64,000 nucleotides of DNA from Branchiostoma lanceolatum (GCF_035083965.1 NC_089722.1:25291081-25355080), one strand, 5' to 3'; positions 38,501 through 62,500 are shown, counted from the first letter of the stretch. Numbers and translations: made by a program. Notes: generated from the letters alone by a model not told the origin.

Positions 38501-41500
38501 GTATACATGCATCTGTCTGTACTGTATCTATAGCTGATGCCCAGCATGTACCTGCGAAGCTGGTGTGTTACGCTTACGAGTGGTTATACTGACTGTACAG
38601 ATACAGATACGGAACTGAGTAGTATCTTGATCAACATGCAAATTAAGATTTCTGATTCTAGATTCATAAGAAATTAATCCTTTTTTAAAGCACATTCATT
38701 TATGTATTTTACGCTTGTGTTTGCAGTGTCAGTGGTATGAAGGACCTAAGCTGAGGGATTTCCTGTTGGGATGTGAGCCTGAGAAGACTACTCTTCAAGC
38801 AGAGGTTGTAAGGGAGATCATGACTTAACTCAAGACTACTCTCCAAGTAGAGGTTGGAGGGGGGGAAATGCTATATTCTCCTGTTTACAGGTTCCAATCA
38901 CAAGAAGGTATAATCAGGCCTTTAGTTGAAAACCAAAGGAGACCAACTGCAGATTGAAAGTCTATCAACTACCAATCTAATCCAGATTTTTGAAGGAGTT
39001 GAGAAGAGTGCTGCCAGTAATGTAGTTACACTTTTAGCATGACACAAATGTGAAGCTTGAAGTCTAAATTTAATGAGATAAGATTAAGCGACAGATCTGT
39101 ATTTTATGTGGAAGATTCTAATGGAACACATAATTCACTACAAGCTGATAGTTTTGTTTATTAATCCAATCACAAGATCATTTTCCAGTGTCTGATGTTC
39201 ATATGACACACCAATTCCTCTAATCTGTGCCCATCAAGGCTTTAAAATGAATGGGTTCAGAAGCTTTATGACAGGATTTGCCAAACATTCAGAAAAATTA
39301 TAAATCAATCACTGCTGAACATTGGTGCACAAACACAAAGACATGTACTACAGAAATATAGAAAAGGCTCAAAAGTACCTCATAAAGCAATCTCTGGCAC
39401 AACTCTCACGTACTCTATCATCAAAGTGTTTGTATATTAGGACACAACAATTTGTTGTTTTTTCCTTCAAAAATTTGCTCACTCCATTGCTTTTCAATTG
39501 CATATTGTCCTTGTCTTCCTAGTTTCTACAGTTTCCCAAAATGTGTTGTCCATAGAAATGATATATTTGATGTGGTCGTAAATGGGTCTATCAAACTTTG
39601 ATTTATGGATTTTTGATTTTGACGCACCAGATTTTATTTGTACCCATTGTATGTTGTCCGCTTCCGTTCTACTGCCAAGCTGTAACACGTATTGTGATTA
39701 TTGCCTGTGCATATATTATACTGGGCCCCAATGGAAATCAGGTATCCTAGCTGTTTGGGCTACCCAGGAGTCTCAAGATGAAATAAATAAATAAATAAAT
39801 AAATAAACTGTTTTCTTATTTTGTCTTACCAGTTTCTCCCAGTTGTATGTCCGTTTAACTTTGTTTTCCTAAATAGTCTAAGAACAAAGAAATTAAATCA
39901 GTAAGACTGCAATCAGTTTTGTATAGTTATGGTTAATGCGTGGAAACAAGTGATGCGTTGTTTATCCCTACAGAGGTTATGAAATATACAGTATGTATGT
40001 GTATGTATGTGCTTCAAAGATTTGTATGTCATCTGACGTGCTTTGTATTTATTGAAGGGTCTATTTCTGATTGAATGAGTCTCTTGCTGCATTTCCTTGA
40101 TTCTCACTTTAGTAACTAGATACGGGCAAACATACATCAAAGCTTGGGATAGACAACGGTTAGTCGTTTTAAGTTGTATAAATACAAATGCCCTTCCCCC
40201 TCTCGGCCCGATAGGTTGATATTCAAGGTGACCTAAGTCAGGTCTAGTAGACACGACACGTCCAGTGTATCATTGGTATCAATACACATCTCTGTATGTA
40301 GGTGTGAAAGAGGTCCCCGTTGAGTTAATCCTCTACGCAGTTTAAGATAAGGAGTTAATCCTCGCAGGTTAAAAGCCCGACGCAGTGTAAAGCCCCAACG
40401 AAGTTTCAGTTCCGACGCAGGTTAAGTTCCGACGTACGTATTTTAAGAGTTCATCCATGTTTATATAGTTAACCCCATCCTGTCCCCTCCTAACTTAAGT
40501 CCTTTGAGTGGTTGCGGAATCCAGGTTTGACTCTACTTTGCGTTCGTAAATTATAACATTAAAAAAGGCTAATGTGTCCAATTAACGGAGATGTGCCTAA
40601 CTATAGTCGATTATTTGCGCCCTCCGGTGGCCTATAACCATTAGGTGTTAAGAAGGTGTGAAGTGAACGAGGTGCTACATGTAATTAGGCTCCCGTGGAG
40701 TTAATCCTCGACCGTTTTTTTAAGGTTCGGTTGCTGTTTTAAAAACTCGACTGTTGTTTTAAATACTCGACTGCTGTTTTAAAACTCGATTGCGATTTAA
40801 GAACTCGATTGCGGTGTCAAGGCCTCGGTTGCGATGTAGCGACTCGAATGTGATGTAAGGACTCGATTGCGATGTAAAGACTCGATTGCTGCGATATGTA
40901 AAGATAGCGATGTCGGTTGCAGTGTTATGATCGGTTGCGATGTAAGGTAAGTGTTGTCGTTAACGACAGCTAAATCGCGGTCGAAATCCAAACGCCGTCA
41001 TGGCAATGACATCGACTCTAGTTTTGACGCATCGCCGTGCAGCCTTGTTATCGAACCGAAAAAAGGACTTGTTAGACCGCCAACTTTACATTAGCCAATT
41101 TGTGTACAAATCTTTCAAGAAGAGAACAGAGACTCTGTAGATTTAGATGGAATTATTCATTTTATTTTACTTCATGTTACCTAATGCATTTAGCCCATGT
41201 TGGGCATGAATATGCAATAAAGCTCATTGTCATTGTCATTGTATAAACCACTTTAGACGACTCACTTGAAGAAGTGCCACTCCAGTTCCTCCGGTGACAT
41301 CTGACTGATTTGTTCCTCTGTCAGCTCCTGGACGTGCTCCTTCAGGTGACTGGTGGAAAACGTTAAGATGAACTTTGAAGTCATTATACACAATTAAACA
41401 GGCAATGTTCGTTTTCACGATTTCATTCTCTCTAAATATCAATGTTGAATCAACTTGAGTAGATAACAGACCAAGCTGCTGTTGTTCACACGCTATGCAC

Positions 41501-42589: not shown

Positions 42590-44078
42590 CTAATTCCCCT
42601 GTTGTTTCATTTCCGCCTCTTTTTGTTTCCGCGCAGCTTCAGCCATGACTTCGCGCCTTTTCCTGGCGATGACGTATTCAATCCAGCTGATCATGCCGTC
42701 ATCGTCGGAGTCATCGTCCTCCAGGATCTTGTCCACCAAACCTACGCAGTAGAAACAAAAAAATTGGGACTACGATTTCCATTGAATGAGTGAAGAAAAT
42801 CTGTGGAAACACTGATTTACACAAGAGATGTCACAGAAAAAACTAGGCAGTGCATTTGCTGACCAGGGAAAAATCAGAAGTACATGTACAACATTGTAAG
42901 AGATTATGCTAGTTTAAGAGCCAGCCGTACTGCTTGTCAGGTAGTTCAAGTCATTCCCACATCATATGGTGTATGTATTGCCGTGCTCATCTCCGTTCTA
43001 TAGCCCTTGGGCCACACAGCTGCGAAAGCACTACTTCAGAGGGCTAGCCCCATAAGTGCTGTTTGTACCCATTAAGTACTCCATCATTTCGTTGTAGTCA
43101 GGAGGGAGGCCATAGTCGGTTGAATGTTCGATGGCGGCCATGATCTCCAGTCCGTCCAACTTCAAGTCCTTGTCTCCGTCGTGAGACCTGTGGTTAACGA
43201 CGAAAACAGAAGAACAAGTTTCCTGTAATTTGATCTAACCAGGCGTAGATCATCAACATCATCATCATCTGTACCCCCAAATAACCTCATTAGGGGCAAA
43301 GTAGGGGAGTTGAGGTCCCGAGCTAGGGTGGGCAGGCCTCCAGCCTGGCACGGAACGACTCAACGGTGGGAGCCGTCACAACCGTGCCAGGCAGGGCATT
43401 CCACTGGGACTATGATGCAAACTTGGCGTAAGTAATTCAAGTTTTTCTACAGCCTGCTCTTATTTTTGATTTATCAGAGGTTTCTTCAAAGGGATATACT
43501 CACTTGAAGAAGTGGAACTCCATTTCTTCGGGTGACATCTGGTTAATCTGTTCTTCCGTCAGCTCTTGGACGTGCTCCTTTAGGTGACTATAGAAAAATA
43601 TCACCGGATTATTCATGATCATTAGAAAAGCTCTCCTAAAACTTAGCTAGCTCTGTAACCATATGAAAAGTAAGTCGTCTGTATGGAGGGGCACACAGCT
43701 GTGTCCGTTCACACCATGGCTTCTCGTTCCGTTCTGTTGTAAATGAAAATTACAAAATACATAACGAAAACCTTTACGCCGTAGATATGTTAAAGTGTTA
43801 AAGATTCGTACATATCAAAATGATAGAATTGTCTTTGTATCCACAGTAAGAATTCAAAATTTGCAATAATGACTGTTTAGTTCCTTATGTGACGCTTCCC
43901 ACATTATTCCATATGGTTATCTGACCATAAAACCATAAAAAACCTACTGTTTATCCTGTGTCATTGCTGGATCCCGAAACCTATTGCTTGCAGTATCGCC
44001 GGTACCAGTGCATAATGCAATCGGCACAAGAAACAGAAAGGCACTGATGACCACCAGCAAACGACGTAAAAACTCCAT
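42590..44078 (-). CDS. MCFD2-like copy E (4 exons); its terminal exon lies just outside the 6.4-kb duplicated unit
   Basis: Exons are about 44078-43963 (MEFLRRLLVVISAFLFLVPIALCTGTGDTASNRFRDPAMTQDK, donor GTAGGT), 43588-43503 ([28 protein letters not shown]), 43186-43070 ([39 protein letters not shown]) and 42744-42590 (LVDKILEDDDSDDDGMISWIEYVIARKRREVMAEAARKQKEAEMKQQGN*). Confidence 0.75.
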
Positions 44079-45016
44079 GTTGATAGCTTAGGATTTGCGC
44101 TGCTAGTGCGTTACTACTACTATCCTCATGTGAGTGAGTATTTGTGCCGAAGTTAATCTTTAACCGCTGTACGCTCGCACCCACGTGTTCTCCACACTCG
44201 AGAGTACATTGTTTTCGCGAGGAGTAAATAAAGCAATATCAATAGACAGCAAATAGTTATTGTAAGGTGTCTGGTTGTGAATGTCGTGAGAATGAGAAGC
44301 ATCAGAACAGTTCAGACAGAGGAAAGGGCATTTATTACCAATTCACACTTTCAGTCCTTAGCCTTATCATAGTGACATTGCTTCGGAAGGTAACTAAAAT
44401 ACGAACCGCTGGAAGAACGTACAAACGTGTAAAACATTTATCCTGAAATAGGTAGATAGCCGCTTTATTTCATAAACGTAGACACAGCCACAAAACTATT
44501 TCTCGGCAACAACATCAGACTTTAAGGCGAAGTACGTAACTGCTGTACAGAAAAGGCGGAAATGTCATTCCGCTTTATTTCACACAAGTAACGTCGTCGT
44601 CAAACGACAATTCTTTTAGAAAATAATTGTTTAAGATCATCGCTTCCTTAAAGTAAGAGAGCACCTCCCCATGAAATTACCGTGTTATGTTCGTTTAGAT
44701 GCTTGGTCCCTCGACAATCACTTGGTTTTTAAAACGTTCAGGGTGGTTTGGAAAGTCTAATTACACAGTTTTTCATTTTAAGTTGTACATAAAACGGCAA
44801 TTATATGATAACCTGCCACACGTATGTAGATGTATATACCGCTATCCATCAGTTTTGGACATGTGCTTTCAGATGTTTCACTACTAATCATTGTAAGCAT
44901 TGGCTGCATGTACCATATATTTCAAATTCTATCAATTTGTTCTAAGTATCATATTTATCATCATCTAGTGCATTGCATTAATGCATCTAGTTCCCCTGTT
45001 GTTCTTGTTGTTTCCG

Positions 45017-47933
45017 TCATGCCACTTTTTGTTTCCGCGCATGCGCGGCTTCAGCCTCGACTTCGCGCCTTCTGCTGGCGATGACGTATTCAATCCAGCT
45101 GATCATGCCGTCATCGTCGGTGTCATCGTCTGCCAGGACCTTGTCCACTAATTCTGCACAGAAGAAACAATTTAAGGGGACAAACAAATATTTTCTCTGT
45201 GCATTCAATAGTTTGTTCAGTAATAAAACACTCCTTTACGCCGGAACGTTGCGGACAGAAAACCCAGAATAGTACATGATGCTTGGTGAAAATTCAAAGT
45301 TCAAAATGGGGGGAGTTAATGCTTGTTCAAAATCCACACCGCTGTGCAAGTACTACAGCAGTAGCCTGAGTACCAGCCCTTTTAGCTTCCGTCCGCTACC
45401 CAAGCTCCGCTACCGGCCGGTAGCGGAGCTTGGGTAGCGGACGGAAGCTAAAAGGGCTGGTACTCAGGCTACTACAGCAGGAGGCTAGTCCACTGGTAGT
45501 GACGTTTGTTTAAATGCTATATTCGTTTCCATAAGTGCTGTATGTACCTGCATAGTACTCCGTCATATCTTTATCTTCATGCGTGTTAAAGTGGGTTGAA
45601 TGTTCGATGGCGGCCAGTATCTCCAGTCCGTCCAACTTCAAGTCCTTATCACTGTCGTGAGTCCTGTGGAGAGGCGACGATTTCATATTGTTCAATCTAA
45701 TCACGCGTACGAATCCCTACAGATACTAGAAAGGCAACATTTGCGAGCAAATACAGCATGTTTAGCCATACTCCTCGCCATGCAAAAAATGGACTCTCCC
45801 AAAATAACAATGGACCATTCTAAAATACTTGCACTAAAAAAATGAATCACCCCAGTCCAAAATTGAGTCTTCCAGTAGCACCTCAACACAATATGGACCA
45901 GTCCACAACCATATCCACTTATTGATTAACAAATACACTTCTGCTAACAAATGGACTTTTTCATAATCATTCCAGCTCAAAATTGAAAGAAATGATTAAA
46001 GAATCCTCCCCTTGCAAGAATGGGATATTCCGTGCCATTTCCATGTAAACCAGTCGAAAAATATCCGCTGAAAATTACACTCTTGCGCATAATCAACCCA
46101 GTTCAAAATTGAATGAAAAAAGATCAACCCCAGGGAAGAATGAAGTTTTCCATAGTATACATATGAAGATTTGACAGGAGAAGAAGGAAATGACCCAAAA
46201 CAACATATTTGAATGGGTGAAATATAAAAATGTGACACCCCTTTGTTTGAATGTACTTTGGGTTGAAAATAACGAAACGAAAAAATTCTTTGTTTAAAAA
46301 ATCGTTTTGAAAGGCTGTATGCCAAACATTTGAATGAGGGCCTGTGTACATGACCAAGGCAGACACATACCAGATTTCACATTATTTTGGTTTAATACAT
46401 AGGAACTGGAGATGTGTATCTTTGTTAAAAAAAGAGTGAACAAAGCCATGTAATCACATGTCCTAGGAATTCCCATACCATATTTGGCATGAATACTAGC
46501 ACACCTGCGCCAGGAATGCAAGATAATTAGATTAACCCAATTGACCAATCAGGTGGTCGCAAGGCTCACAGGCATGCAAGGCCAGGTGCAAGGCACTTGG
46601 GGTCAATGACCTTTAGGTCATATGTAGTATTGAAAGTGACAGAAGTGGCAAATATTGTCAAGAAAGCCCAAAATAAATCGTTTTGAATATATGTATGCCA
46701 AAAATGGGAATGTAGTCCTTTAAATATTTGTACAAGCCACATATACAGCAAATTTCAGGTCATTCGGTTGAAATACCAGGGCGCAGGAGGCCAAGATATG
46801 CTAAAAATAGCCTAAAAACCTCAATAAAATCACTTTTAAGGTCAATATCAAAAAAAGGAAAAGAACACACATTGGTTTTTGCCTACATTACCTCTGTACC
46901 AAATTTCAGGTCATTTGGTCAAAAAATGACAGAGATGAATCGATTTGAAGATTTGACAGGAGGAGAAGAAGAAGAAGAAGAAGAAGAAGAAGAAGAAGAA
47001 ACATGAGTAAAAACAATATGTTTAGCCATACTAGGTATGGCTAAACATAATAATAAGTTGATGTCAATGTCTAGCCTGACTAAATCGCGCTCCTAGCGGC
47101 TGGCCCGACGGCTACAGGGCCCCTATGTAAAGCAGTGTTAATCACTGAGCAGGGCTACCCTGGGTAAACATGACAGAAGAAGAAAAAATTAAAGATTAAA
47201 AATACAGCCCCTACCGCCCTTGGGGAAGAGATCATTAACCCCAGCCAGCGAGAGAATGTATAAACCAAGTCTAATACCCATTATTCTCTGCTAACCAGAG
47301 GTGTCTAAACCATCTCCTCTCATAGGGTTAGGCAGCAGGGTGAAGGTTAAAAGAATTAACTCACTTGAAGAAGTGGAACTCCTTTTCTTCAGATGACATC
47401 TCGTTGATCTGTTCTTCCGTCAGCTCTTTGACGTGTTCTTTCAGGTGACTACGTGAAATAAGATTGTCATATAGTTAGCTCTGTAACCATAGACATGCTT
47501 TAATTCGGAGTTGGAAGGCAGGTCGTCTGTGTGGGGAGGGGTACACAGCCCAGGTCTCTCAAACGCTAATCAGTCCCATTATTAATGAAAATATAACAAA
47601 AACATTTACTACCTCAACTATGACATCTGAATGATGAATTTCTGTACTCTGTCTATCAAAATGACAACATTATCCACAATATAATTTCTCGATTTCAAAA
47701 CTTTGTAATAATGAAGTAGAAGTGTTAAAGTTCCTTATGAAACACTTCCCACATTGTTCCATATGGCAATCTAAAAACAAAGACAGAACCATGAAAACCC
47801 ACTCTTTATCCTGCGTCATTGCTGGATCCCGAAACTTGTTGCTTGGAGTTTCGTCAGTACCAGTACATAATGCGTGTGGCACCAGAAACAGAAAGGCACT
47901 GATGGCCACCACCAAACGACTTGAAAACTCCAT
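45017..47933 (-). CDS. MCFD2-like copy F (4 exons, intron 2 about 1.7 kb)
   Basis: Exons are about 47933-47803 (MEFSSRLVVAISAFLFLVPHALCTGTDETPSNKFRDPAMTQDK, donor GTGGGT), 47455-47372 (HLKEHVKELTEEQINEMSSEEKEFHFFK), 45666-45548 ([38 protein letters not shown]) and 45153-45017 (ELVDKVLADDDTDDDGMISWIEYVIASRRREVEAEAAHARKQKVA*). Confidence 0.75.
46700..47005. mobile_element. SINE-like repeat with a (GAA)12 tail (duplicated at 53089-53394)
   Basis: See 9650-10140. The tail is gaagaagaagaagaagaagaagaagaagaagaagaaa. Confidence 0.5.
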
Positions 47934-49458
47934 GTTAATAGAATAGTGCAGCCAGTACCAGCGCCTTCCTATCTGCATGTGAGTGAGAATCTGTGCCGAC
48001 GTGTGCGCACACAGCTCATTAAGTACTTTGCTTATACAAGTAGCAAAACAATTGACATAGTTATTGTAAGGTGTTCGGTTGTGGGTGTCGTGGGAATGAG
48101 AAGCATTAGTACAGTTTAGACAGACCAAAAAGGTAATTATTACAATCCTACTGCGTTTCTGGCCTGGAATGATAGCTTTATCATGGTAACGTTTCACCAG
48201 AAGCGAAGGTAGTTAAAAACGCACCAAAAAAAGACGAACACAATGCCGTAGAATTACGCATAAAACACAATGAGCCTGCTTGGAGATTCTCGAAACGCAT
48301 ACAACAAAACAGCTCCCAACAAGTTATTGAAATGATATGTAGGTTTAGTAAGGCGCGATTTTAGTATATGAAAACCATGTCAACCAGTTAAACCATGCCA
48401 AATAAGCGCATGTCAGCAACTGTGACCGCAATAACCATTTACAGCAAAATCGGTGACTTTGGCCGACTGTCTTTGCAACTCTATATGATTGCCAGTATGC
48501 CACGTTCTGCGCTGACTAATACGAACAGGAAGGGCCTTGCCCATAATGTATTATGACACTCCTTCTATGACACCACCATAATGGACCTGTTATGATACAG
48601 TAGTGGAATGTGATATGTATGGTGAGGGGGAGGGGAAAACGAGACAACCCAAACGCCTCTTCACAGATGGTATTCAGGGTTCAGAGCCAGGCTGGGACAA
48701 AACAATCTGTTTAGTACATTAATTAATATTCGCGGTTGGCGGTTTAAAAGTGCTCTCACATCACCGATGAGGTCTACGAAATACAATTTATTCCATAACG
48801 TTGGTCACAATGGCCTACATCATTACGATGAAAATGAGTCGAATTGCGCAAAATGCGTTCTCAGACTACCAGGAAAAATGGGTATAGTCTATAGAAAGTT
48901 CTGGGCGCCCTGGAAAAGATGTTTAATTGCACTATTGCGATGATACGACTCCACATACTAGTATGTATGTTCTATAAGGAATGACGGATTCACCGGTTTA
49001 GTAACACGCCTATACATAACGGGATGACTGGTGATGACCACACGCTCTATATATATCCCGGGGGAACAGCTGCACAGTACAGTCCCCAGGGCCGACCCGT
49101 GTGGCCGCTAACTCCGACTTCTGCGACTTTTTGTCCCCAGAGAAAGGTATTCAATGGACTACGATTTCCATTGAATGAGTGAAGAAAATCTGTGGAAACA
49201 CTGATTTACACAAGAGATGTCACAGAAAAAACTAGGCAGTGCATTTGCTGACCAGGGAAAAATCAGAAGTACATGTACAACATTGTAAGAGATTATGCTA
49301 GTTTAAGAGCCAGCCGTACTGCTTGTCAGGTAGTTCAAGTCATTCCCACATCATATGGTGTATGTATTGCCGTGCTCATCTCCGTTCTATAGCCCTTGGG
49401 CCACACAGCTGCGAAAGCACTACTTCAGAGGGCTAGCCCCATAAGTGCTGTTTGTACC

Positions 49459-50467
49459 CATTAAGTACTCCATCATTTCGTTGTAGTCAGGAGGGAGGCC
49501 ATAGTCGGTTGAATGTTCGATGGCGGCCATGATCTCCAGTCCGTCCAACTTCAAGTCCTTGTCTCCGTCGTGAGACCTGTGGTTAACGACGAAAACAGAA
49601 GAACAAGTTTCCTGTAATTTGATCTAACCAGGCGTAGATCATCAACATCATCATCATCTGTACCCCCAAATAACCTCATTAGGGGCAAAGTAGGGGAGTT
49701 GAGGTCCCGAGCTAGGGTGGGCAGGCCTCCAGCCTGGCACGGAACGACTCAACGGTGGGAGCCGTCACAACCGTGCCAGGCAGGGCATTCCACTGGGACT
49801 ATGATGCAAACTTGGCGTAAGTAATTCAAGTTTTTCTACAGCCTGCTCTTATTTTTGATTTATCAGAGGTTTCTTCAAAGGGATATACTCACTTGAAGAA
49901 GTGGAACTCCATTTCTTCGGGTGACATCTGGTTAATCTGTTCTTCCGTCAGCTCTTGGACGTGCTCCTTTAGGTGACTATAGAAAAATATCACCGGATTA
50001 TTCATGATCATTAGAAAAGCTCTCCTAAAACTTAGCTAGCTCTGTAACCATATGAAAAGTAAGTCGTCTGTATGGAGGGGCACACAGCTGTGTCCGTTCA
50101 CACCATGGCTTCTCGTTCCGTTCTGTTGTAAATGAAAATTACAAAATACATAACGAAAACCTTTACGCCGTAGATATGTTAAAGTGTTAAAGATTCGTAC
50201 ATATCAAAATGATAGAATTGTCTTTGTATCCACAGTAAGAATTCAAAATTTGCAATAATGACTGTTTAGTTCCTTATGTGACGCTTCCCACATTATTCCA
50301 TATGGTTATCTGACCATAAAACCATAAAAAACCTACTGTTTATCCTGTGTCATTGCTGGATCCCGAAACCTATTGCTTGCAGTATCGCCGGTACCAGTGC
50401 ATAATGCAATCGGCACAAGAAACAGAAAGGCACTGATGACCACCAGCAAACGACGTAAAAACTCCAT
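49459..50467 (-). pseudogene. MCFD2-like copy E' (duplicate of E): exons 1-3 only, terminal EF-hand exon missing because the duplication breakpoint lies in intron 3
   Basis: It is identical to E exons 1-3 shifted by +6389 (50467-50352, 49977-49892, 49575-49459). Downstream on the - strand, 49458-48200 holds no LVDK...DDDGMISWIEYV exon. The next sequence is the promoter and exon 1 of copy F. Confidence 0.5.
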
Positions 50468-51405
50468 GTTGATAGCTTAGGATTTGCGCTGCTAGTGCGT
50501 TACTACTACTATCCTCATGTGAGTGAGTATTTGTGCCGAAGTTAATCTTTAACCGCTGTACGCTCGCACCCACGTGTTCTCCACACTCGAGAGTACATTG
50601 TTTTCGCGAGGAGTAAATAAAGCAATATCAATAGACAGCAAATAGTTATTGTAAGGTGTCTGGTTGTGAATGTCGTGAGAATGAGAAGCATCAGAACAGT
50701 TCAGACAGAGGAAAGGGCATTTATTACCAATTCACACTTTCAGTCCTTAGCCTTATCATAGTGACATTGCTTCGGAAGGTAACTAAAATACGAACCGCTG
50801 GAAGAACGTACAAACGTGTAAAACATTTATCCTGAAATAGGTAGATAGCCGCTTTATTTCATAAACGTAGACACAGCCACAAAACTATTTCTCGGCAACA
50901 ACATCAGACTTTAAGGCGAAGTACGTAACTGCTGTACAGAAAAGGCGGAAATGTCATTCCGCTTTATTTCACACAAGTAACGTCGTCGTCAAACGACAAT
51001 TCTTTTAGAAAATAATTGTTTAAGATCATCGCTTCCTTAAAGTAAGAGAGCACCTCCCCATGAAATTACCGTGTTATGTTCGTTTAGATGCTTGGTCCCT
51101 CGACAATCACTTGGTTTTTAAAACGTTCAGGGTGGTTTGGAAAGTCTAATTACACAGTTTTTCATTTTAAGTTGTACATAAAACGGCAATTATATGATAA
51201 CCTGCCACACGTATGTAGATGTATATACCGCTATCCATCAGTTTTGGACATGTGCTTTCAGATGTTTCACTACTAATCATTGTAAGCATTGGCTGCATGT
51301 ACCATATATTTCAAATTCTATCAATTTGTTCTAAGTATCATATTTATCATCATCTAGTGCATTGCATTAATGCATCTAGTTCCCCTGTTGTTCTTGTTGT
51401 TTCCG

Positions 51406-54322
51406 TCATGCCACTTTTTGTTTCCGCGCATGCGCGGCTTCAGCCTCGACTTCGCGCCTTCTGCTGGCGATGACGTATTCAATCCAGCTGATCATGCCGT
51501 CATCGTCGGTGTCATCGTCTGCCAGGACCTTGTCCACTAATTCTGCACAGAAGAAACAATTTAAGGGGACAAACAAATATTTTCTCTGTGCATTCAATAG
51601 TTTGTTCAGTAATAAAACACTCCTTTACGCCGGAACGTTGCGGACAGAAAACCCAGAATAGTACATGATGCTTGGTGAAAATTCAAAGTTCAAAATGGGG
51701 GGAGTTAATGCTTGTTCAAAATCCACACCGCTGTGCAAGTACTACAGCAGTAGCCTGAGTACCAGCCCTTTTAGCTTCCGTCCGCTACCCAAGCTCCGCT
51801 ACCGGCCGGTAGCGGAGCTTGGGTAGCGGACGGAAGCTAAAAGGGCTGGTACTCAGGCTACTACAGCAGGAGGCTAGTCCACTGGTAGTGACGTTTGTTT
51901 AAATGCTATATTCGTTTCCATAAGTGCTGTATGTACCTGCATAGTACTCCGTCATATCTTTATCTTCATGCGTGTTAAAGTGGGTTGAATGTTCGATGGC
52001 GGCCAGTATCTCCAGTCCGTCCAACTTCAAGTCCTTATCACTGTCGTGAGTCCTGTGGAGAGGCGACGATTTCATATTGTTCAATCTAATCACGCGTACG
52101 AATCCCTACAGATACTAGAAAGGCAACATTTGCGAGCAAATACAGCATGTTTAGCCATACTCCTCGCCATGCAAAAAATGGACTCTCCCAAAATAACAAT
52201 GGACCATTCTAAAATACTTGCACTAAAAAAATGAATCACCCCAGTCCAAAATTGAGTCTTCCAGTAGCACCTCAACACAATATGGACCAGTCCACAACCA
52301 TATCCACTTATTGATTAACAAATACACTTCTGCTAACAAATGGACTTTTTCATAATCATTCCAGCTCAAAATTGAAAGAAATGATTAAAGAATCCTCCCC
52401 TTGCAAGAATGGGATATTCCGTGCCATTTCCATGTAAACCAGTCGAAAAATATCCGCTGAAAATTACACTCTTGCGCATAATCAACCCAGTTCAAAATTG
52501 AATGAAAAAAGATCAACCCCAGGGAAGAATGAAGTTTTCCATAGTATACATATGAAGATTTGACAGGAGAAGAAGGAAATGACCCAAAACAACATATTTG
52601 AATGGGTGAAATATAAAAATGTGACACCCCTTTGTTTGAATGTACTTTGGGTTGAAAATAACGAAACGAAAAAATTCTTTGTTTAAAAAATCGTTTTGAA
52701 AGGCTGTATGCCAAACATTTGAATGAGGGCCTGTGTACATGACCAAGGCAGACACATACCAGATTTCACATTATTTTGGTTTAATACATAGGAACTGGAG
52801 ATGTGTATCTTTGTTAAAAAAAGAGTGAACAAAGCCATGTAATCACATGTCCTAGGAATTCCCATACCATATTTGGCATGAATACTAGCACACCTGCGCC
52901 AGGAATGCAAGATAATTAGATTAACCCAATTGACCAATCAGGTGGTCGCAAGGCTCACAGGCATGCAAGGCCAGGTGCAAGGCACTTGGGGTCAATGACC
53001 TTTAGGTCATATGTAGTATTGAAAGTGACAGAAGTGGCAAATATTGTCAAGAAAGCCCAAAATAAATCGTTTTGAATATATGTATGCCAAAAATGGGAAT
53101 GTAGTCCTTTAAATATTTGTACAAGCCACATATACAGCAAATTTCAGGTCATTCGGTTGAAATACCAGGGCGCAGGAGGCCAAGATATGCTAAAAATAGC
53201 CTAAAAACCTCAATAAAATCACTTTTAAGGTCAATATCAAAAAAAGGAAAAGAACACACATTGGTTTTTGCCTACATTACCTCTGTACCAAATTTCAGGT
53301 CATTTGGTCAAAAAATGACAGAGATGAATCGATTTGAAGATTTGACAGGAGGAGAAGAAGAAGAAGAAGAAGAAGAAGAAGAAGAAGAAACATGAGTAAA
53401 AACAATATGTTTAGCCATACTAGGTATGGCTAAACATAATAATAAGTTGATGTCAATGTCTAGCCTGACTAAATCGCGCTCCTAGCGGCTGGCCCGACGG
53501 CTACAGGGCCCCTATGTAAAGCAGTGTTAATCACTGAGCAGGGCTACCCTGGGTAAACATGACAGAAGAAGAAAAAATTAAAGATTAAAAATACAGCCCC
53601 TACCGCCCTTGGGGAAGAGATCATTAACCCCAGCCAGCGAGAGAATGTATAAACCAAGTCTAATACCCATTATTCTCTGCTAACCAGAGGTGTCTAAACC
53701 ATCTCCTCTCATAGGGTTAGGCAGCAGGGTGAAGGTTAAAAGAATTAACTCACTTGAAGAAGTGGAACTCCTTTTCTTCAGATGACATCTCGTTGATCTG
53801 TTCTTCCGTCAGCTCTTTGACGTGTTCTTTCAGGTGACTACGTGAAATAAGATTGTCATATAGTTAGCTCTGTAACCATAGACATGCTTTAATTCGGAGT
53901 TGGAAGGCAGGTCGTCTGTGTGGGGAGGGGTACACAGCCCAGGTCTCTCAAACGCTAATCAGTCCCATTATTAATGAAAATATAACAAAAACATTTACTA
54001 CCTCAACTATGACATCTGAATGATGAATTTCTGTACTCTGTCTATCAAAATGACAACATTATCCACAATATAATTTCTCGATTTCAAAACTTTGTAATAA
54101 TGAAGTAGAAGTGTTAAAGTTCCTTATGAAACACTTCCCACATTGTTCCATATGGCAATCTAAAAACAAAGACAGAACCATGAAAACCCACTCTTTATCC
54201 TGCGTCATTGCTGGATCCCGAAACTTGTTGCTTGGAGTTTCGTCAGTACCAGTACATAATGCGTGTGGCACCAGAAACAGAAAGGCACTGATGGCCACCA
54301 CCAAACGACTTGAAAACTCCAT
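51406..54322 (-). CDS. MCFD2-like copy F' (identical duplicate of F, 4 exons)
   Basis: It has the same exons as F shifted by +6389. Every six-frame ORF in 49159-55547 is identical to its partner in 42770-49158. Confidence 0.7.
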
Positions 54323-56229
54323 GTTAATAGAATAGTGCAGCCAGTACCAGCGCCTTCCTATCTGCATGTGAGTGAGAATCTGTGCCGACGTGTGCGCACA
54401 CAGCTCATTAAGTACTTTGCTTATACAAGTAGCAAAACAATTGACATAGTTATTGTAAGGTGTTCGGTTGTGGGTGTCGTGGGAATGAGAAGCATTAGTA
54501 CAGTTTAGACAGACCAAAAAGGTAATTATTACAATCCTACTGCGTTTCTGGCCTGGAATGATAGCTTTATCATGGTAACGTTTCACCAGAAGCGAAGGTA
54601 GTTAAAAACGCACCAAAAAAAGACGAACACAATGCCGTAGAATTACGCATAAAACACAATGAGCCTGCTTGGAGATTCTCGAAACGCATACAACAAAACA
54701 GCTCCCAACAAGTTATTGAAATGATATGTAGGTTTAGTAAGGCGCGATTTTAGTATATGAAAACCATGTCAACCAGTTAAACCATGCCAAATAAGCGCAT
54801 GTCAGCAACTGTGACCGCAATAACCATTTACAGCAAAATCGGTGACTTTGGCCGACTGTCTTTGCAACTCTATATGATTGCCAGTATGCCACGTTCTGCG
54901 CTGACTAATACGAACAGGAAGGGCCTTGCCCATAATGTATTATGACACTCCTTCTATGACACCACCATAATGGACCTGTTATGATACAGTAGTGGAATGT
55001 GATATGTATGGTGAGGGGGAGGGGAAAACGAGACAACCCAAACGCCTCTTCACAGATGGTATTCAGGGTTCAGAGCCAGGCTGGGACAAAACAATCTGTT
55101 TAGTACATTAATTAATATTCGCGGTTGGCGGTTTAAAAGTGCTCTCACATCACCGATGAGGTCTACGAAATACAATTTATTCCATAACGTTGGTCACAAT
55201 GGCCTACATCATTACGATGAAAATGAGTCGAATTGCGCAAAATGCGTTCTCAGACTACCAGGAAAAATGGGTATAGTCTATAGAAAGTTCTGGGCGCCCT
55301 GGAAAAGATGTTTAATTGCACTATTGCGATGATACGACTCCACATACTAGTATGTATGTTCTATAAGGAATGACGGATTCACCGGTTTAGTAACACGCCT
55401 ATACATAACGGGATGACTGGTGATGACCACACGCTCTATATATATCCCGGGGGAACAGCTGCACAGTACAGTCCCCAGGGCCGACCCGTGTGGCCGCTAA
55501 CTCCGACTTCTGCGACTTTTTGTCCCCAGAGAAAGGTATTCAAACGGCGCAAGTTCTCAAGTACCGACAAGGTAAGATGCCGTTTGTATCTCTATGTGAA
55601 TTTTGAGCGTTTCTCTGTATGTTTCGTTGAAATAAAGATTCAAAAAGCAAAATGTTACGTGCAGCCTGTGACGCTGTCATGATAGACAATGACAGATGTT
55701 TGAGGATCGGTCTATGATATATGGTGTATTTCTTACCCCCCTCCCAAACGACTCTTTCGATATTACAAAATTATTAGGGAAAGAGTCTGCGTTCTGTTCT
55801 GTCTCATTTAGTTGCCTATTAACGTTATATGACTGATCAATCGTAGATCATGCTTTTGTCGTTTTGATAGTATGTGTAGCCGAGAGACCCACACGACGGT
55901 AGAACATTCTGGTCTCTGACAACGATTCAACTTCATTTATGTATCACGACCGTCCCGTTATTGGTGGGAAATTTTAGCTGATTCATAGTCTTCACTGTTA
56001 TGAAACAGCCAGGTTATGAGCAGGCGCGATGCTCATTACATTGTAATTAAGCCCAATCAAGTTGTTATATCGGCCGAGTTCTACTTAATCAGTAAAACTG
56101 CTGCTCTCTGTGAATACAGCTGTGTGGCAATGGTTTTGATTTCCGCATCAACATTTTCATTTCATATGCCTATATCAAAATTGGTTAAGATGACAAACCT
56201 ATTGTTTTACTCATCAAGCAACCGAAATG

Positions 56230-56264
56230 TTTTGACATTCTTTTTGTGTGTTGCGTATGTGTGT

Positions 56265-56308
<44 letters not shown>

Positions 56309-56324
56309 GTGTATGTATGGATGA

Positions 56325-56400
<76 letters not shown>
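56230..56400. repeat. (TG)n microsatellite, interrupted
   Basis: gtgtgtgtatgtgtgtgtgtgtgtgtg... The Cys/Val and His/Thr ORFs at 56214-56505 are artefacts of this tract. Confidence 0.95.
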
Positions 56401-56523
56401 ATTCTGGAGAATCCTTCCTGTGAGAAAATGTTTAAGTGTATAAACATCACTTTCCTTGTCTTTTTGCCCCAGGTAACCAAGTTAAAGATTTTTAAAGACT
56501 TGTAACAAGAAAAATCATCATGT

Positions 56524-59500
56524 CAGGTGGCATGAAAACCCTGCGCATCAAGTCCGGAAATGACATCAAACTTGATCTTCCAATCAGCGGGGACCCTCCA
56601 CCAACGGTCACATGGTATAAGGATAACAAAGAGTTGCGTAATTTGGGCCGACACAGCATCCGGAACACCCCCATTTCCACCGTACTAAAGGTGCGGGGTG
56701 CAGACTGGACGGACGCGGGAGTATACACTTTAAGGGTAACGGCACTTTGATTGACACAACTACACTAATACATCGGCAATTGGTTCTTGAAATACAACCT
56801 GAGAAGCATTCACCTGGCCAACGTTTGATAACTTCTCAGCTTCCCACTTCAGGGCCCGAATGGACGCTACTACTCCTAGCCGCATCATGGCGTTGCAGCA
56901 AAGATGCGGTCCCAAACATGGATTTAGGTGTAATTCAAGCATTTATTTTCCTCCGACTTACCAACTTGATGCTATTCGCGATACACTAACACATCTTAGA
57001 CTGTTAGAGACAGACCTGCATCCAGAAAAAAATGATAAGAATAAATTTTGAAATAATTTTAATGAAATGAATTTCAGCAATTAAACACGGGGGGGGGGGG
57101 CGCCAGTTGTACATGTACCCCAAATTCCATCAAGATATTTGTTACGCTTTTCCCTTTTAACAGAATTGTCCTCGCCGTTATTTCAGATCTCTAATGAGTT
57201 GGGGACTAACAAGGCTGATATCAAGATCGAGGTAATTGGTCCTCCCGACCCCCCAAAGGGCCCACTTACCGTGAGTGACGTCACCGCGGAAACTGCCGTG
57301 CTGACATGGGCGGCACCACAGTACGACGGGGGAGCAGAGGTAACATGGTGCTTTTTTTGACGACACCTCAAGGAAGGAGCCGATAATGCATGCAGCGTTA
57401 CGATCGAGTTGAAAATGTTATAAGAGCTCTTACCATGTATCGAGTTTTTGGCCACGCCTCAAATGTCTGGTTCACACATTCCTTGTTCCTATCTAGCACG
57501 ACTTACATCAACCTCTACGTTAAGTGTTTATTGACACATTTGCGGTTGGTGATTTTCAGGTGATGAACTACGTTGTTGAGAAGACGGACAGTTTCGGGTT
57601 GACCTGGGTGTTCGTGAACACAAACGTGCAGAGGAACACGATCCGCGTGACCGGACTGATCCCTGATGGGGAGTACAAGTTCAGGGTCAGCGCCGAAAAC
57701 AAGTAAGTCATAAAGGCCCAACTTATACTAGTATCATATAATGCCTGTTTGAGGTCAGTCACATTCATGGTGATGGAACCTTCAATGATACCACTCCTTC
57801 CTTCCATCACAAGCTATCTGCCCCAAAAACACCAAGTCCATAGCAAGTCCAGGTGAAAAGATACAAAAAACGGAAGTTCTCCTGCAGTACCAAGGTCACC
57901 TACCAGGGCGCCCAAAATCGACCTTGACCTTTGTCTTCCCAAGACCTGCCCACATACCAAATATCATCGTAATCCATCCAAGGTTCTTGAGGTATGCTGA
58001 TTATAATATCCGGAAGCACAAACAAACACACAGACATACACACACACACAAAACTATACCTACATTTTTCATGGAGATAAAAGATCTAAAGATATGCTTT
58101 GTTCTAGGTTTGGCACGGGACGTCCTATCGAGTCTGACGTCATCGTCGCCAAGAACCCTTACGACATCCCGGCCTCCCCTCGAGACGTGCGGATCTTGGA
58201 CGCGTCCGGTGAAACCATCATATTGGCATGGCGACCACCTGCAGACGACGGGGGGTCAGAGATCACAGGTCAGTAGTGCATATACGACCGAAACCTTTAT
58301 CTGAGGTTTCTCCAGATTCTTGTAATTGAATATTCTCCGTGAGAACAACCTCTTAGTATATAGAAAACTTGATTCCAATATATTTTTTTTTTGCTCAGGG
58401 TATATTGTGGAACGGCGTGAGAAGTCCAGCCGCCGCTGGGTCAAAGTAAACAAAACTCCCGTCAGGAAGCTAGAGATCCGTTCACAGGGGCTTGTTAAGG
58501 TATGTCACGCAAACCGTGAGTGCGCTCAAACGTGACAAGAGACCGCCATGCTGGTGGTGTGGTTAGATCCAAGATGGCGACCGGACCTTACCGAATCCAA
58601 ACTCATATGGTTCTGGTGTCTATTTTCTAAATATGCAGGGCCAACATGAGGCATGTCGAGGAAGAGGAAAAATCAAGATTGTCACGAGCCTTTAACACAC
58701 CAACATGGCGGCGCATGTTCTTGTCCTTGAAAAAAACCCACAATATAGTCCATCCAATGCACCGTTTCCATAGTTAATTAACATTGTCATACGCCTCCTG
58801 GTTTGTTTTGAGAAGCATGCATTATTCGTGCATCGTTTATCTGTGTGTGTTTTCTAATAGTTACAATAAACACGCTGGTATATCAGTCTAAAACCATCAC
58901 ACTTGCTGTTCGTTCCCAGGGTCTGGAGTACGAGCACAGGGTGAGCGCGGTGAACGCCGCGGGAGTGGGGACCCCTAGCGGACCGACCGAGCTGGTGGAG
59001 ATCATCGATCCTGTTGACGAACCAACTGAACTGAAGGTGAGAAACAATATCATATTTGTTTTGTGGCCTGCAAAATATGACATTATTCCCAAGTCCCAAC
59101 ACTGTTGTTTTCTCTTTTCATTCTTAAATTAATTATGGACCGATTTGTACCCCCCCCCCCCCCCCCAGGTTACAGAAGTGTCCAGGAACTCGGTGTCATT
59201 GAAGTGGACAAGGCCCCTTAGCGACGGAGGAAGTCGCATCGTGACGTACATCATCGAGCGACGTCAAATGAAGGATGCCGAGGAGACTTGGCTGCGCTGT
59301 AACGAGTCGAACGTGCAGGACACCAACTTCACTGTGGAGAATCTGCTGACAGACGAGGTCATCGTCTTCAGGTACGGGCGAGCTTTAGAGTTCCAGGCGT
59401 ATCATAGCATGTTGTGGCTGTGACGTAGCAATGACGTACGCGTAATCAAGCGTCTGCCATGTTGCCTGCTTAAAGACGCCTGTAGGTAATTAAGTAATTC

Positions 59501-62500
59501 TGAGAGAAATATTTCAATAACTTAATCCGACAACACCTCTGCCCAATCCTACCCCACCCTCACCCCCATATGCATCAATATCAGACTCCTTGACTTTGAG
59601 GTTGAAATTTTAGTACACATGTCTACATGCCGCACATGTCCAATCCCCACTCCAGGGTGTCAGCCCGTAACGCCGCCGGTGTCGTCAGTAAACCCAGCGA
59701 GCCCACACCACCCGTGGTACTGAAGGACGAGGAACGCCCGCCTGTGGTGCAGGTAATAAAAATTTGTCTTCATTCAGCAAACATTTTAATTAATACAGCA
59801 CAGTACATGAGATGACATATCGCAGCTACATGGTGCAACATTCAATCTGCTGAAAACTGGTTTTAGGTTGAAATTAAGTCAAAGTAGATACTTTTCTTAC
59901 CTCTTATGATTTACCTGTTGGAGTAATGGTTCAATATTTGTGCAGGTGGACGCCAAGACTAAGACATCCCAGCGGTTACGGGCGGGAGAGTCCGTACATC
60001 TCATCGTCAATGTCACCGGGAAACCACGCCCTGCCATCTTCTGGACCAAAGATGAAGTTGACATCCTGAAAGTTCCCGGAGCCAGGGTAAGAACAATTGA
60101 ACCCCTCTCTTCTTTTCTTGTGTTGTCTTGTCTTGTCTTAAAGTCGACAACAAATGGTAGTTATGTGAGGAAAATCTAAACTAAGGCCACAGCAAGTAAT
60201 TTTTATGGATGACATCAGCGCGCTCATTAATTTTCGCCTGATTTCGAAATAAAAAACAAGAGATTTCATTTCCCTCCAACGGTGGTCAACATGCCAAAAA
60301 TTGGCAAATATGTCGTAAACGTTGACAGTCTAAGGTGTTTCATCGCATATGAATACCCAGTGTAGTTCCTGCCCATGATGGTATGACAAGCTGTTTTCTG
60401 CGTTTGTTATAGTTAATTGAGCTGTATACACATCTTCAAGAACAGTTTAATGTTGACAGTCCAAGGTGTTTCATTGCATATGAATATCCAGTGTAGTTCC
60501 TGCCCATGATGGTATAATAACAAGCTGTTTTCTGCATTTGTTCTAGCAAGGACATTATATAAATAATGGGGGGGGGGGGGGCTAGTTAATTAAGCTGTAT
60601 ACACAAGGTGTTTCATCGCATATGAATTCCCAGTGTAGTTGCTTCAGATGATGGTACAACAAGCTCTTTTCTGCATTTGTTGTAGCTAGTCTATTGAGAT
60701 GTATACACATCTACAAGGACATGTTTACATTAAATCAAGGAGGTTTTATATTACATGTACATATGAAACCTCATTGGTTGAATACAGGACTAAAAGACCT
60801 GTTGGTCATGATATCATATTTCGTCGCCTCAATTCTTGTTTAACAAGACTTATGATCTCAAAATTTGAAAATATAGGAATCTTGTTTTTTTTTCCCACCT
60901 TGTTTTTTTTTCGCCCTATCTCCTTAATTTTGGAGTCTGTGGAGGATGTCATCCATAAAATTTACTTGCTGTGGCCTAAAGTAAATACACACTCTTTTGT
61001 CTAAGATTTCATCGCAAATGTCTCTTGTGTTCGTGACTGCGAGAAATACAATTGCAAAATCGAGCTAGATTCATCTTTTATCAATTTTCATAAATTTGGA
61101 ATGATTCTATCTCATATAGCAACATGCATTCAGGTATTGAAAATCAGTTCGGCACATATGATTTTTAACTTATTTTCTGTACTTTTACTATTGTATGGTA
61201 CGAATGTCAATATTTGATCAAACTCATTGATGTCATTGGTCTACGATGTAGGTAACAAGTACAGAAAAGAGCCTGGGGCCAACCTGTGAGCTCTACATTG
61301 CGTCAGCAGAACGTGCGCACAATGGGAAATACGTAATCATGGCACAGAACGAGCTGGGACAGGCGTCCGAGACACTGGAGCTGGTGGTAACGGACAGACC
61401 ACAACCACCCGAAGGTGAATCAACTTCTCCTTCTATATGATCAAATTCTTAGAACAAGTTAAGTCGAACATCTGCCATTTTAGCTTAAAATGTGTAGGAC
61501 GGGCACCATCAGCATTTGTCTTACACAGTCCAATTGCTATATTTTTACCTGCCCTTATTGCTTACCTCCAACCCAGTTGTCAAGAAAAACCTGTCAGTGA
61601 CGTATTTTTCCCATGATCCCTTTAGATGTTGAAGTGACCGAGATCACCCCTGAGTCCGCCACAGTCACCTGGCGTCCGCCTGAAGACGACGGCGGGTCAG
61701 AGGTCACGAGCTACGTTGTGGAAATGTATGACTTCAAGGTCAGTGACATAGTCGGAGGAATTTACGTGTCTATTATGAATTTCTTAAAAAGGTCTAATCG
61801 TACCATAAGATATGTTGAGATGACATAAAACAACTCACGTTAGTACTGGTCAAACTTCTACCAGTATTATAGACAAGATTTCACCTCCCTTTGTCTGAAC
61901 CTCAGGAGAAAGAGTGGACGGAGGCGTGCCGTAGTGTCCGTAAGACGCCCTGTACCGTGCCCAGGCTCATCGCCGGCAGGATTTACAAGTTTGGCGTGCG
62001 TGCGCAGAACATGTACGGCGTCAGCAACAGGAGAACCACGTCACAGATGGAGGCAAAATACACCTTCGAGCCGCCTGAAGCACCTGACATGCCCAGGCCA
62101 ATGGAGGTAACATCATTACCGAACATCATAACCGTAAGGAACATGCATGATGTTTCAACAGCAGCGGCGTAGGCACGAAATGGTTTGCATAGCGCGACGA
62201 GGGTGTCGCTCTAGGCCTTCATACTGCTGGGCCCAATACCTACACCATGGAGCCATGATTTAGCTTTGAAGCTTCGATAGTTTTTGTCTGCTTGCGGTCT
62301 GGGAATCGAGGGGGGCAGGAAACTAATTAAACATGATAACAGGTAATGCCAGAGAAACAACTACACAGATGAAGTCGTTGACATTTCTGAAGAAGGAGTA
62401 ATGATCGTATGCGCGTAAAATTTAAGGTACACAATTCTGATGTAACCGTTGAGAATTATCTTTTCAAAGATTTCCAAGGAAGCGATAGTCCTCCGCTGGA

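What the first reader, a model, noticed from the sequence alone, without database searches (positions are those of the whole stretch)
42770..55547. Apparently perfect 6,389-bp tandem duplication carrying two array genes, with its breakpoint inside an intron
All ORFs in 42770-49158 recur identically at +6389. This points to either a very recent segmental duplication or an assembly artefact, for example two haplotypes placed in tandem. The unit starts 26 bp downstream, in transcript sense, of the copy-E terminal exon. Unit 2 therefore contains E exons 1-3 but no exon 4, and 5' of it sits the tail of unit 1 (copy F's promoter). That predicts either a truncated single-EF-hand product or an E'-F read-through chimera.
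Basis: seen in the sequence. Interest (0 to 1): 0.65.

Follow-up and report, generated by a model that had tools for sequence, protein, structure and literature searches.

The report
Very young tandem duplication in amphioxus
One haplotype of the European amphioxus genome carries a base-perfect, head-to-tail 6.4-kb duplication at the end of a small calcium-binding-protein (MCFD2-like) gene array; it adds one whole gene and one truncated gene, is absent from a second assembly of the species, and is an ordinary though cleanly resolved young copy-number variant, unless raw reads show it to be an assembly error.

Summary
The repeat is real in the sequence. Window 42767-49154 equals 49156-55543 with 0 mismatches over 6,388 bp, and one extra T (49155) sits at the junction. 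The window is Branchiostoma lanceolatum and matches RefSeq proteins of the assembly cited elsewhere as klBraLanc5.hap2. The array genes are 4-exon, minus-strand MCFD2 homologues. The left breakpoint lies in gene E's intron 3, 25 nt before exon 4. The right breakpoint lies inside a cross-species conserved TATA promoter and first non-coding exon of the plus-strand Ig/fn3 neighbour. The independent BraLan3 assembly is single copy and contiguous across both breakpoints. It differs from the window by 3.45% substitutions across the unit, so "two haplotypes in tandem" is excluded. There are no gaps and no repeats at the breakpoints. The junction forms a 10-nt inverted repeat, which suggests template switching. 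Other Branchiostoma species have a single E/F-type gene here, so this end of the array has duplicated before. Best reading: a real, very recent, polymorphic tandem duplication (about 0.75). A non-haplotypic assembly artefact (about 0.17) cannot be excluded without reads. Low interest.

The parts
42767..49154 (.). Unit 1 of the tandem duplication (6,388 bp)
   Evidence: Identical base for base to 49156-55543
49155..49155 (.). Single junction base T, templated by neither flank (42766 is G, 55544 is A)
49156..55543 (.). Unit 2 of the tandem duplication
   Evidence: BraLan3 has a single copy, contiguous across both breakpoints
42590..42741 (-). Gene E exon 4 (second EF-hand and stop). It lies outside the duplicated unit and is present once
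   Evidence: The spliced product equals XP_066297934.1
43069..44078 (-). Gene E exons 1-3 (44078-43948, 43587-43504, 43187-43069), inside unit 1
45017..47933 (-). Gene F, complete: exons 47933-47803, 47448-47365, 45663-45548, 45153-45017. RefSeq starts 45 nt further upstream, at 47978
   Evidence: The product matches XP_066298048.1
49420..50467 (-). Truncated gene E': exons 1-3 (50467-50337, 49976-49893, 49576-49458). The reading frame runs on into the intron to a TAG ending at 49420, giving a 123-aa product with one EF-hand
   Evidence: Identical to XP_066298061.1 = P0016
51406..54322 (-). Gene F', a complete second copy of F (the F exons shifted by +6389)
49149..49176 (.). 10-nt perfect inverted repeat created by the junction: ATTCAA-T-GGA (49149-49158) and TCCATTGAAT (49167-49176), with an 8-nt spacer
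   Evidence: Only 0.16% of 5,000 random junctions reach 10 nt
55435..55573 (+). Original core promoter and first non-coding exon of the plus-strand Ig/fn3 gene: TATA 55435-55445, initiator-like 55464-55476, invariant donor GT at 55572-55573. The right breakpoint (55543|55544) cuts this exon 28 nt before the donor
   Evidence: Conserved in four Branchiostoma sequences (alignment A1); coordinates
49046..49154 (+). Orphan copy of that promoter and truncated exon (TATA 49046-49056, initiator-like 49075-49087). It has no splice donor and points across the junction, antisense into E'
56510..56750 (+). First coding exon of the Ig/fn3 neighbour (ATG at 56520); outside the duplication
59903..60064 (-). 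Distal alternative first exon used by a BraLan3 isoform of F (P0009). It lies outside the unit, so only F' sits downstream of it without an intervening gene

Best explanation
This is a genuine, very recent, non-fixed tandem duplication in one B. lanceolatum haplotype. It arose by a non-homologous, replication or repair type event, either template switching or end joining with one added base. It runs from intron 3 of MCFD2-like gene E to exon 1 of the divergently transcribed Ig/fn3 neighbour.

Shown:
- The minus strand now reads F' (intact, keeps its native upstream context), E' (exons 1-3 only), junction, F (intact, with 1.2 kb of identical upstream DNA), then E (intact).

Inferred consequences:
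- F dosage doubles.
- E' yields at best a secreted 123-aa one-EF-hand fragment. It is probably non-functional, because second-EF-hand mutations in human MCFD2 break the LMAN1 complex. Alternatively its transcripts read through and are frame-shifted into F exon 2.
- An orphan TATA promoter now points antisense into E'.

This is the latest round of the process that expanded this end of the array, from one E/F-type gene in other Branchiostoma species to E plus F in B. lanceolatum.
For: - The two copies show 0 differences in 6,388 bp, against 3.45% substitutions plus about 65 indels between alleles over the same unit. The copies have therefore diverged by less than about 1.4% of allelic divergence (95% bound 3/6388).
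- The independent BraLan3 assembly is single copy and contiguous across both breakpoints, so the single-copy state is ancestral.
- B. floridae x japonicum and B. belcheri loci have a single E/F-type gene next to the Ig/fn3 gene.
- The window has no N or gap and no repeat or paralogous homology at the breakpoints, so two of the hallmarks of false duplications listed in PMC9516828 are missing.
- The junction is a novel sequence with a 1-nt filler. It completes a 10-nt inverted repeat seen in 0.16% of random junctions, as expected from a snap-back template switch.
- Gene models are confirmed by exact identity to RefSeq proteins and by a hit to human MCFD2 structures at E=1.7e-14.
- Tandem duplicates are reported to be abundant in this species (PMC9673378).
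Against: - No reads, depth or other-haplotype data were available, so the junction has no independent support.
- Exact-protein look-ups for the junction-spanning ORF found nothing. The control ORF from the unduplicated flank also found nothing, so the test was uninformative.
- Perfect identity is also what an assembler-made duplicate of the same reads would give.
- The inverted-repeat test was devised after looking at the junction.
- RefSeq's E' model does not prove transcription, because RNA reads cannot tell E from E' up to the junction.
Confidence: 0.75

Rival explanations
1. Non-haplotypic assembly artefact. The same reads were laid out twice, for example through an untrimmed overlap, a gap-fill error, or a chimeric or amplified molecule, creating a false tandem copy in the contig.
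For: Identity is absolute over 6,388 bp, including microsatellites and homopolymers. The duplication is absent from the only other assembly of the species. No read-level evidence could be obtained.
Against: There is no gap or N between or beside the copies, whereas gaps between duplicated pairs are a hallmark of false duplications (PMC9516828). The junction is a new sequence with a filler base and a 10-nt inverted microhomology (p about 0.002), which an overlap error does not predict. There is no low-complexity or repeated sequence at either breakpoint. From general knowledge, modern long-read assemblers need several concordant reads to keep such a path.
Confidence: 0.17
2. An older duplication whose copies are kept identical by gene conversion.
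For: Tandem paralogues can be homogenised. The array is old.
Against: Conversion tracts do not give 0 differences in 6,388 bp right up to both breakpoints, including introns, a 1.3-kb haplotype-specific insertion and a 114-nt palindrome shared by both copies. BraLan3 lacks the duplication. The older paralogues E and F, in the same place, are only about 76% identical in protein.
Confidence: 0.05
3. The two haplotypes of a heterozygous individual were placed head to tail (heterotype false duplication).
For: Amphioxus heterozygosity is among the highest known and is a recognised source of this error (PMC9673378; PMC9516828).
Against: Alleles of this unit differ by 3.45% plus many indels, so about 220 substitutions would be expected and 0 are seen. 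Even the E and F proteins differ between assemblies: 96% identity for E, and 3 residues for F.
Confidence: 0.02

Closest known systems
Young polymorphic tandem duplications (copy-number variants) that capture whole and partial genes, as catalogued in Drosophila and primate populations (own knowledge) and noted as abundant in B. lanceolatum (PMC9673378)
   Same: The copies are head to tail. The breakpoints fall in an intron and in a neighbouring gene's first exon. One complete extra gene and one truncated gene result. The duplication is absent from another individual, and the copies are undiverged.
   Different: It has not been validated with reads or population data. The copies are strictly identical, which puts it at the extreme young end.
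Replicative template-switch rearrangements (FoSTeS/MMBIR) and end-joining junctions with short insertions (own knowledge)
   Same: There is no extended homology at the breakpoints and a 1-nt insertion. The insertion plus its flanks copy an inverted 10-mer 8 nt away. This fits a two-step switch using 6-nt (ATTCAA/TTGAAT) and 3-nt (GGA) microhomologies.
   Different: Only one short templated base is involved. Simple end joining with one random base explains it equally well if the inverted match is coincidence (0.16% of random junctions).
False duplications in genome assemblies (Ko et al. 2022, PMC9516828)
   Same: A gene appears gained relative to another assembly of the same species.
   Different: There is no gap between the copies and no allelic differences between them. 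Read depth and read-pair criteria could not be tested.
Human MCFD2, the soluble two-EF-hand co-receptor of LMAN1/ERGIC-53 (PDB 2VRG, 3A4U)
   Same: E aligns to human MCFD2 over residues 36-135 at E=1.7e-14. It has a hydrophobic N-terminus and two EF-hand loops and is a small protein (about 160 aa). NCBI names these genes MCFD2 homologs.
   Different: Amphioxus has a tandem array of 4-6 genes instead of a single gene. The partners and cargo of the amphioxus proteins are unknown. E' lacks the second EF-hand.

Membership tests
Tandem segmental duplication (real structural variant) | Two adjacent head-to-tail copies joined by one novel junction | tested here: met
   42767-49154 and 49156-55543 are identical, in the same orientation, and joined through T49155
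Tandem segmental duplication (real structural variant) | The single-copy ancestral arrangement exists elsewhere and is contiguous over both breakpoints | tested here: met
   BraLan3 locus L001; other species L002-L004
Tandem segmental duplication (real structural variant) | Reads span the junction, and depth equals the flanks when mapped to this assembly | not testable with these tools
   No read data. Exact-protein look-ups of the junction and control ORFs were both empty
Heterotype (haplotypic) false duplication | The copies differ at the allelic level (haplotype-specific k-mers) | tested here: not met
   0 differences in 6,388 bp between copies, against 3.45% between alleles
False duplication in general (PMC9516828) | An assembly gap or depth gap lies between the duplicated pair | tested here: not met
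   No N anywhere in the window. A depth gap cannot be tested
False duplication in general (PMC9516828) | Haploid or lower read depth and discordant read pairs | not testable with these tools
   No reads available
NAHR-mediated duplication | Homologous repeats at both breakpoints | tested here: not met
   The 300-bp windows around the breakpoints share no similarity with each other. The only other matches are exon-4 paralogues, to the left-breakpoint window alone
Template-switch (FoSTeS/MMBIR-type) junction | Microhomology and/or a templated insertion at the junction | tested here: inconclusive
   A 10-nt inverted repeat spans the junction and accounts for the T (8 of 5,000 random junctions reach 10 nt). 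The test was post hoc, and only one base is templated
MCFD2 family (the genes carried) | Sequence homology to MCFD2 across the EF-hand pair | tested here: met
   phmmer against PDB: human MCFD2 at E=1.7e-14 over residues 36-135. Pfam EF-hand_7 scores 24.8 and 28.4 bits, just under the 30-bit cut-off. NCBI names them MCFD2 homologs
MCFD2 family (the genes carried) | Ca2+-dependent binding to LMAN1/ERGIC-53 and a cargo-receptor role | not testable with these tools
   Biochemical property. In humans, second-EF-hand mutations D129E and Y135N disrupt the complex (PMC10119632). E' lacks that EF-hand altogether

The most novel reading that the evidence does not exclude
The duplication has just created new transcription units. 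One candidate is an in-frame E'(exons 1-3)-F(exon 4) chimeric MCFD2-like protein. The other is an antisense or alternative-5'UTR transcript driven by the orphan copy of the Ig/fn3 gene's TATA promoter, now fused to E' intron 3. If so, this would be a datable, breakpoint-resolved case of gene birth segregating in a natural chordate population.
Probability: 0.1. Interest if true: 0.4.

Novelty: new member of a known kind. Interest (0 to 1): 0.2.

Why it matters
If the duplication is real, it is a cleanly resolved snapshot of how a tandem gene array grows. Both breakpoints are known to the base and the ancestral state is available. The immediate products are one full extra gene, one truncated gene and one orphan promoter, seen before any divergence.

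In practice, it warns users of this reference that the MCFD2-like gene count here (6 full plus 1 partial) is haplotype-specific. BraLan3 has 5, and the B. floridae x B. japonicum locus examined has 4. The 123-aa RefSeq protein is a duplication by-product, not a distinct family member. Beyond that, it is an ordinary structural variant.

Tried and rejected
- Exact-sequence look-ups (look-up of encoding contigs) of the junction-spanning ORF (49024-49182) and a control ORF over the unduplicated right flank (55413-55682) both returned nothing, so they give no information on read or sample support.
- Look-ups of the RefSeq proteins P0001, P0003 and P0016 were not on record, so the RefSeq locus and its gene table could not be retrieved.
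- A second large protein search with the junction ORF was considered and dropped. The first search returned only annotated NCBI/UniRef proteins, so raw-run assemblies of amphioxus appear not to be in the collection.
- Rfam over the whole window gave no RNA families.
- NAHR between array paralogues was rejected because the breakpoints share no homology.
- I considered that the 26-kb block with 493-bp inverted repeats might be an intact giant transposon. I found only degraded LINE reverse-transcriptase fragments and minisatellites, no transposase-length ORF and no clean target-site duplication.
- A literature search for MCFD2 together with amphioxus gave no papers.

Full report
**Observation.** A direct comparison shows s[i]=s[i+6389] for every position from 42767 to 49154, which is 6,388 bp without a mismatch. 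Copy 1 is 42767-49154 and copy 2 is 49156-55543. Base 49155 (T) matches neither the base left of copy 1 (G42766) nor the base right of copy 2 (A55544). The window has no N, and this is its only long perfect repeat.

**Organism and genes.** Splicing the minus-strand exons by eye and script gives two 4-exon genes.
- E has exons 44078-43948, 43587-43504, 43187-43069 and 42741-42590.
- F has exons 47933-47803, 47448-47365, 45663-45548 and 45153-45017.
- The E product (161 aa) is identical to XP_066297934.1 of Branchiostoma lanceolatum, on a 44,478,171-bp chromosome. F matches XP_066298048.1.
- The RefSeq B. lanceolatum assembly is cited as klBraLanc5.hap2, GCF_035083965.1.
- E hits human MCFD2 structures at E=1.7e-14 over residues 36-135. 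Pfam EF-hand_7 scores fall just below threshold.

**Anatomy of the duplication.**
- The left breakpoint (42766|42767) lies in E intron 3. It leaves 25 intronic nt (the pyrimidine tract and the AG) plus exon 4 outside the unit.
- Unit 2 therefore carries E' with exons 1-3 only.
- Reading on from exon 3 into the intron gives ...EYLMGTNSTYGASPLK*, 123 aa. This is exactly RefSeq XP_066298061.1. It has the signal-like N-terminus and the first EF-hand but lacks the second.
- The right breakpoint (55543|55544) falls in a block conserved among B. lanceolatum (both assemblies), B. floridae x B. japonicum and B. belcheri (alignment A1).
- That block holds a TATA box (55435-55445), an initiator-like CAGTACAGTCCCC (55464-55476) and an invariant AAG|GTAAG donor (GT at 55572-55573).
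- I infer that it is the core promoter and non-coding first exon of the plus-strand Ig/fn3 gene. Its coding sequence starts at 56520, in an exon beginning at 56510.
- The unit therefore includes the whole F-to-Ig/fn3 divergent intergenic region.
- The tail of unit 1 holds an orphan copy of that promoter (TATA 49046-49056) with a truncated exon and no donor. It points across the junction, antisense into E'.
- F in unit 1 keeps 1.2 kb of upstream DNA identical to that of F'.
- A distal alternative first exon used by a BraLan3 F isoform (P0009; window 60064-59903) lies outside the unit. Only F' lies directly downstream of it.

**Comparison with other assemblies.**
- The BraLan3 locus (GCA_927797965.1, OV696686.1:24482382-24503889; L001) has the order Ig/fn3 - F - E - CD - B - A - EMI/collagen gene.
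- Each part of the unit occurs once there, and the sequence is contiguous across both breakpoints.
- Over the unit, the two assemblies differ by 154 substitutions in 4,461 aligned positions (3.45%) and about 65 gap openings.
- The E proteins differ at 4% of residues and the F proteins at 3 residues.
- Two haplotypes laid in tandem would thus show about 220 substitutions, and none are seen.
- With 0 differences in 6,388 bp, the 95% upper bound on copy divergence is 4.7e-4. That is less than 1.4% of the allelic divergence.
- B. floridae x japonicum (L002) and B. belcheri (L003, L004) have one E/F-type gene head to head with the Ig/fn3 gene.
- In L002 this gene is followed by CD, B and A.
- This end of the array has therefore grown from one E/F-type gene, to E plus F in B. 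lanceolatum, to F'-E'-F-E in this haplotype.

**Mechanism.**
- The 300-bp windows around the two breakpoints share no similarity and are not repeats. This rules out NAHR.
- The junction reads ...GGTATTCAA-T-GGACTACGATTTCCATTGAATGAG. ATTCAATGGA (49149-49158) is the exact reverse complement of TCCATTGAAT (49167-49176).
- Only 8 of 5,000 random junctions with a random filler base gave a junction-spanning inverted repeat of 10 nt or more.
- This fits the following sequence of events. A nascent 3' end ...ATTCAA snaps back onto TTGAAT. It copies T, and up to TGGA. It then re-engages at GGA (42767) and re-replicates the segment. This is inference, and the test was post hoc. Simple end joining with one added base remains possible.

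**Real or artefact.**
- In favour of a real event: no gap between the copies, no allelic k-mers, a novel junction with a polymerase-type signature, unique sequence at both breakpoints, and a species known for abundant tandem duplicates (PMC9673378).
- The published hallmarks of false duplications are gaps between the copies, reduced read depth, discordant read pairs and haplotype-specific k-mers (PMC9516828). The two that can be tested here are not met.
- Against certainty: no read-level evidence could be obtained, and perfect identity is also what a layout error would give.
- I put a real young polymorphic duplication at about 0.75. I put a non-haplotypic artefact at about 0.17, gene-conversion homogenisation at about 0.05 and haplotypes in tandem at about 0.02.

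**Consequences (inferred).**
- There are two identical F genes, which should double F dosage.
- E is untouched.
- E' has no terminal exon. Its transcripts may end at cryptic signals: ATTAAA at 48927 and AATAAA at 48792 on the minus strand. That would give the 123-aa fragment.
- Alternatively the transcripts splice onward. Exon 3 (phase 1) to F exon 2 (phase 2) stops after two codons. Exon 3 to F exon 4 is in frame and gives a 155-aa chimera.
- No chimeric protein is in the databases searched.
- In human MCFD2, second-EF-hand mutations abolish LMAN1 binding (PMC10119632). A one-EF-hand E' is therefore most likely non-functional.

**Verdict.** The haplotype-artefact alternative is excluded. What remains is an ordinary young tandem duplication in a variable gene array. 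It is useful as an annotation caveat and as a tidy example of array growth, but it is not surprising.

Noticed in passing
window 14411-41238: Intron 2 of the third array gene is 26.8 kb here but only about 215 bp in BraLan3. That gene has exons 3-4 at 13.8-14.4 kb and exons 1-2 at 41.2-41.9 kb, and its product is XP_066297925.1. What looks like two partial copies (C and D) is therefore one gene split by a huge haplotype-specific insertion. The block holds 493-bp, 99% inverted repeats (14799-15291 / 40604-41096), LINE reverse-transcriptase fragments in both orientations (about 21.1-23.5 kb) and minisatellites, but no intact transposase-length ORF and no clean target-site duplication.
   Followed up: partly
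window 45360-45473 and 51749-51862: A 114-nt perfect palindrome (57+57 nt, centre 45416/45417) sits in F intron 3 and is present in both units. BraLan3 has only one arm, so this haplotype carries a local fold-back inverted duplication, a second event of template-switch flavour.
   Followed up: partly
window 45726-47063 (and +6389): A 1.34-kb stretch in F intron 2 is absent from BraLan3, which has 21 bp there. It is a probable transposable-element insertion and contains a GAG-type microsatellite near 46980-47006.
   Followed up: no
window 55891-56038: A second non-coding block, inside the inferred intron 1 of the Ig/fn3 gene, is conserved at 70-83% in B. floridae x japonicum and B. belcheri. 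It may be an alternative exon or an enhancer.
   Followed up: no
window 59903-60064 (minus strand): This is the coding alternative first exon of a BraLan3 isoform of gene F (P0009). It lies antisense within the Ig/fn3 gene body, about 5.6 kb upstream of F' exon 1.
   Followed up: partly
L002 (B. floridae x B. japonicum), L003/L004 (B. belcheri) vs L001 (BraLan3): Only one E/F-type gene lies next to the Ig/fn3 gene in the other species. The E/F pair is therefore specific to B. lanceolatum, or was lost elsewhere. E is closer to the B. floridae x japonicum orthologue (83% in alignment A2) than to F (76%).
   Followed up: partly
window 9141-9648, 18798-19521, 30803-35800, 56246-56440: Several tandem arrays are present: 127-nt x4, 98-nt x6, 29-nt and 53-54-nt minisatellites with a roughly 2.4-kb internal duplication (30023-30709 vs 32394-33103), and a long (GT/CA)n microsatellite just upstream of the Ig/fn3 coding exon.
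   Followed up: no
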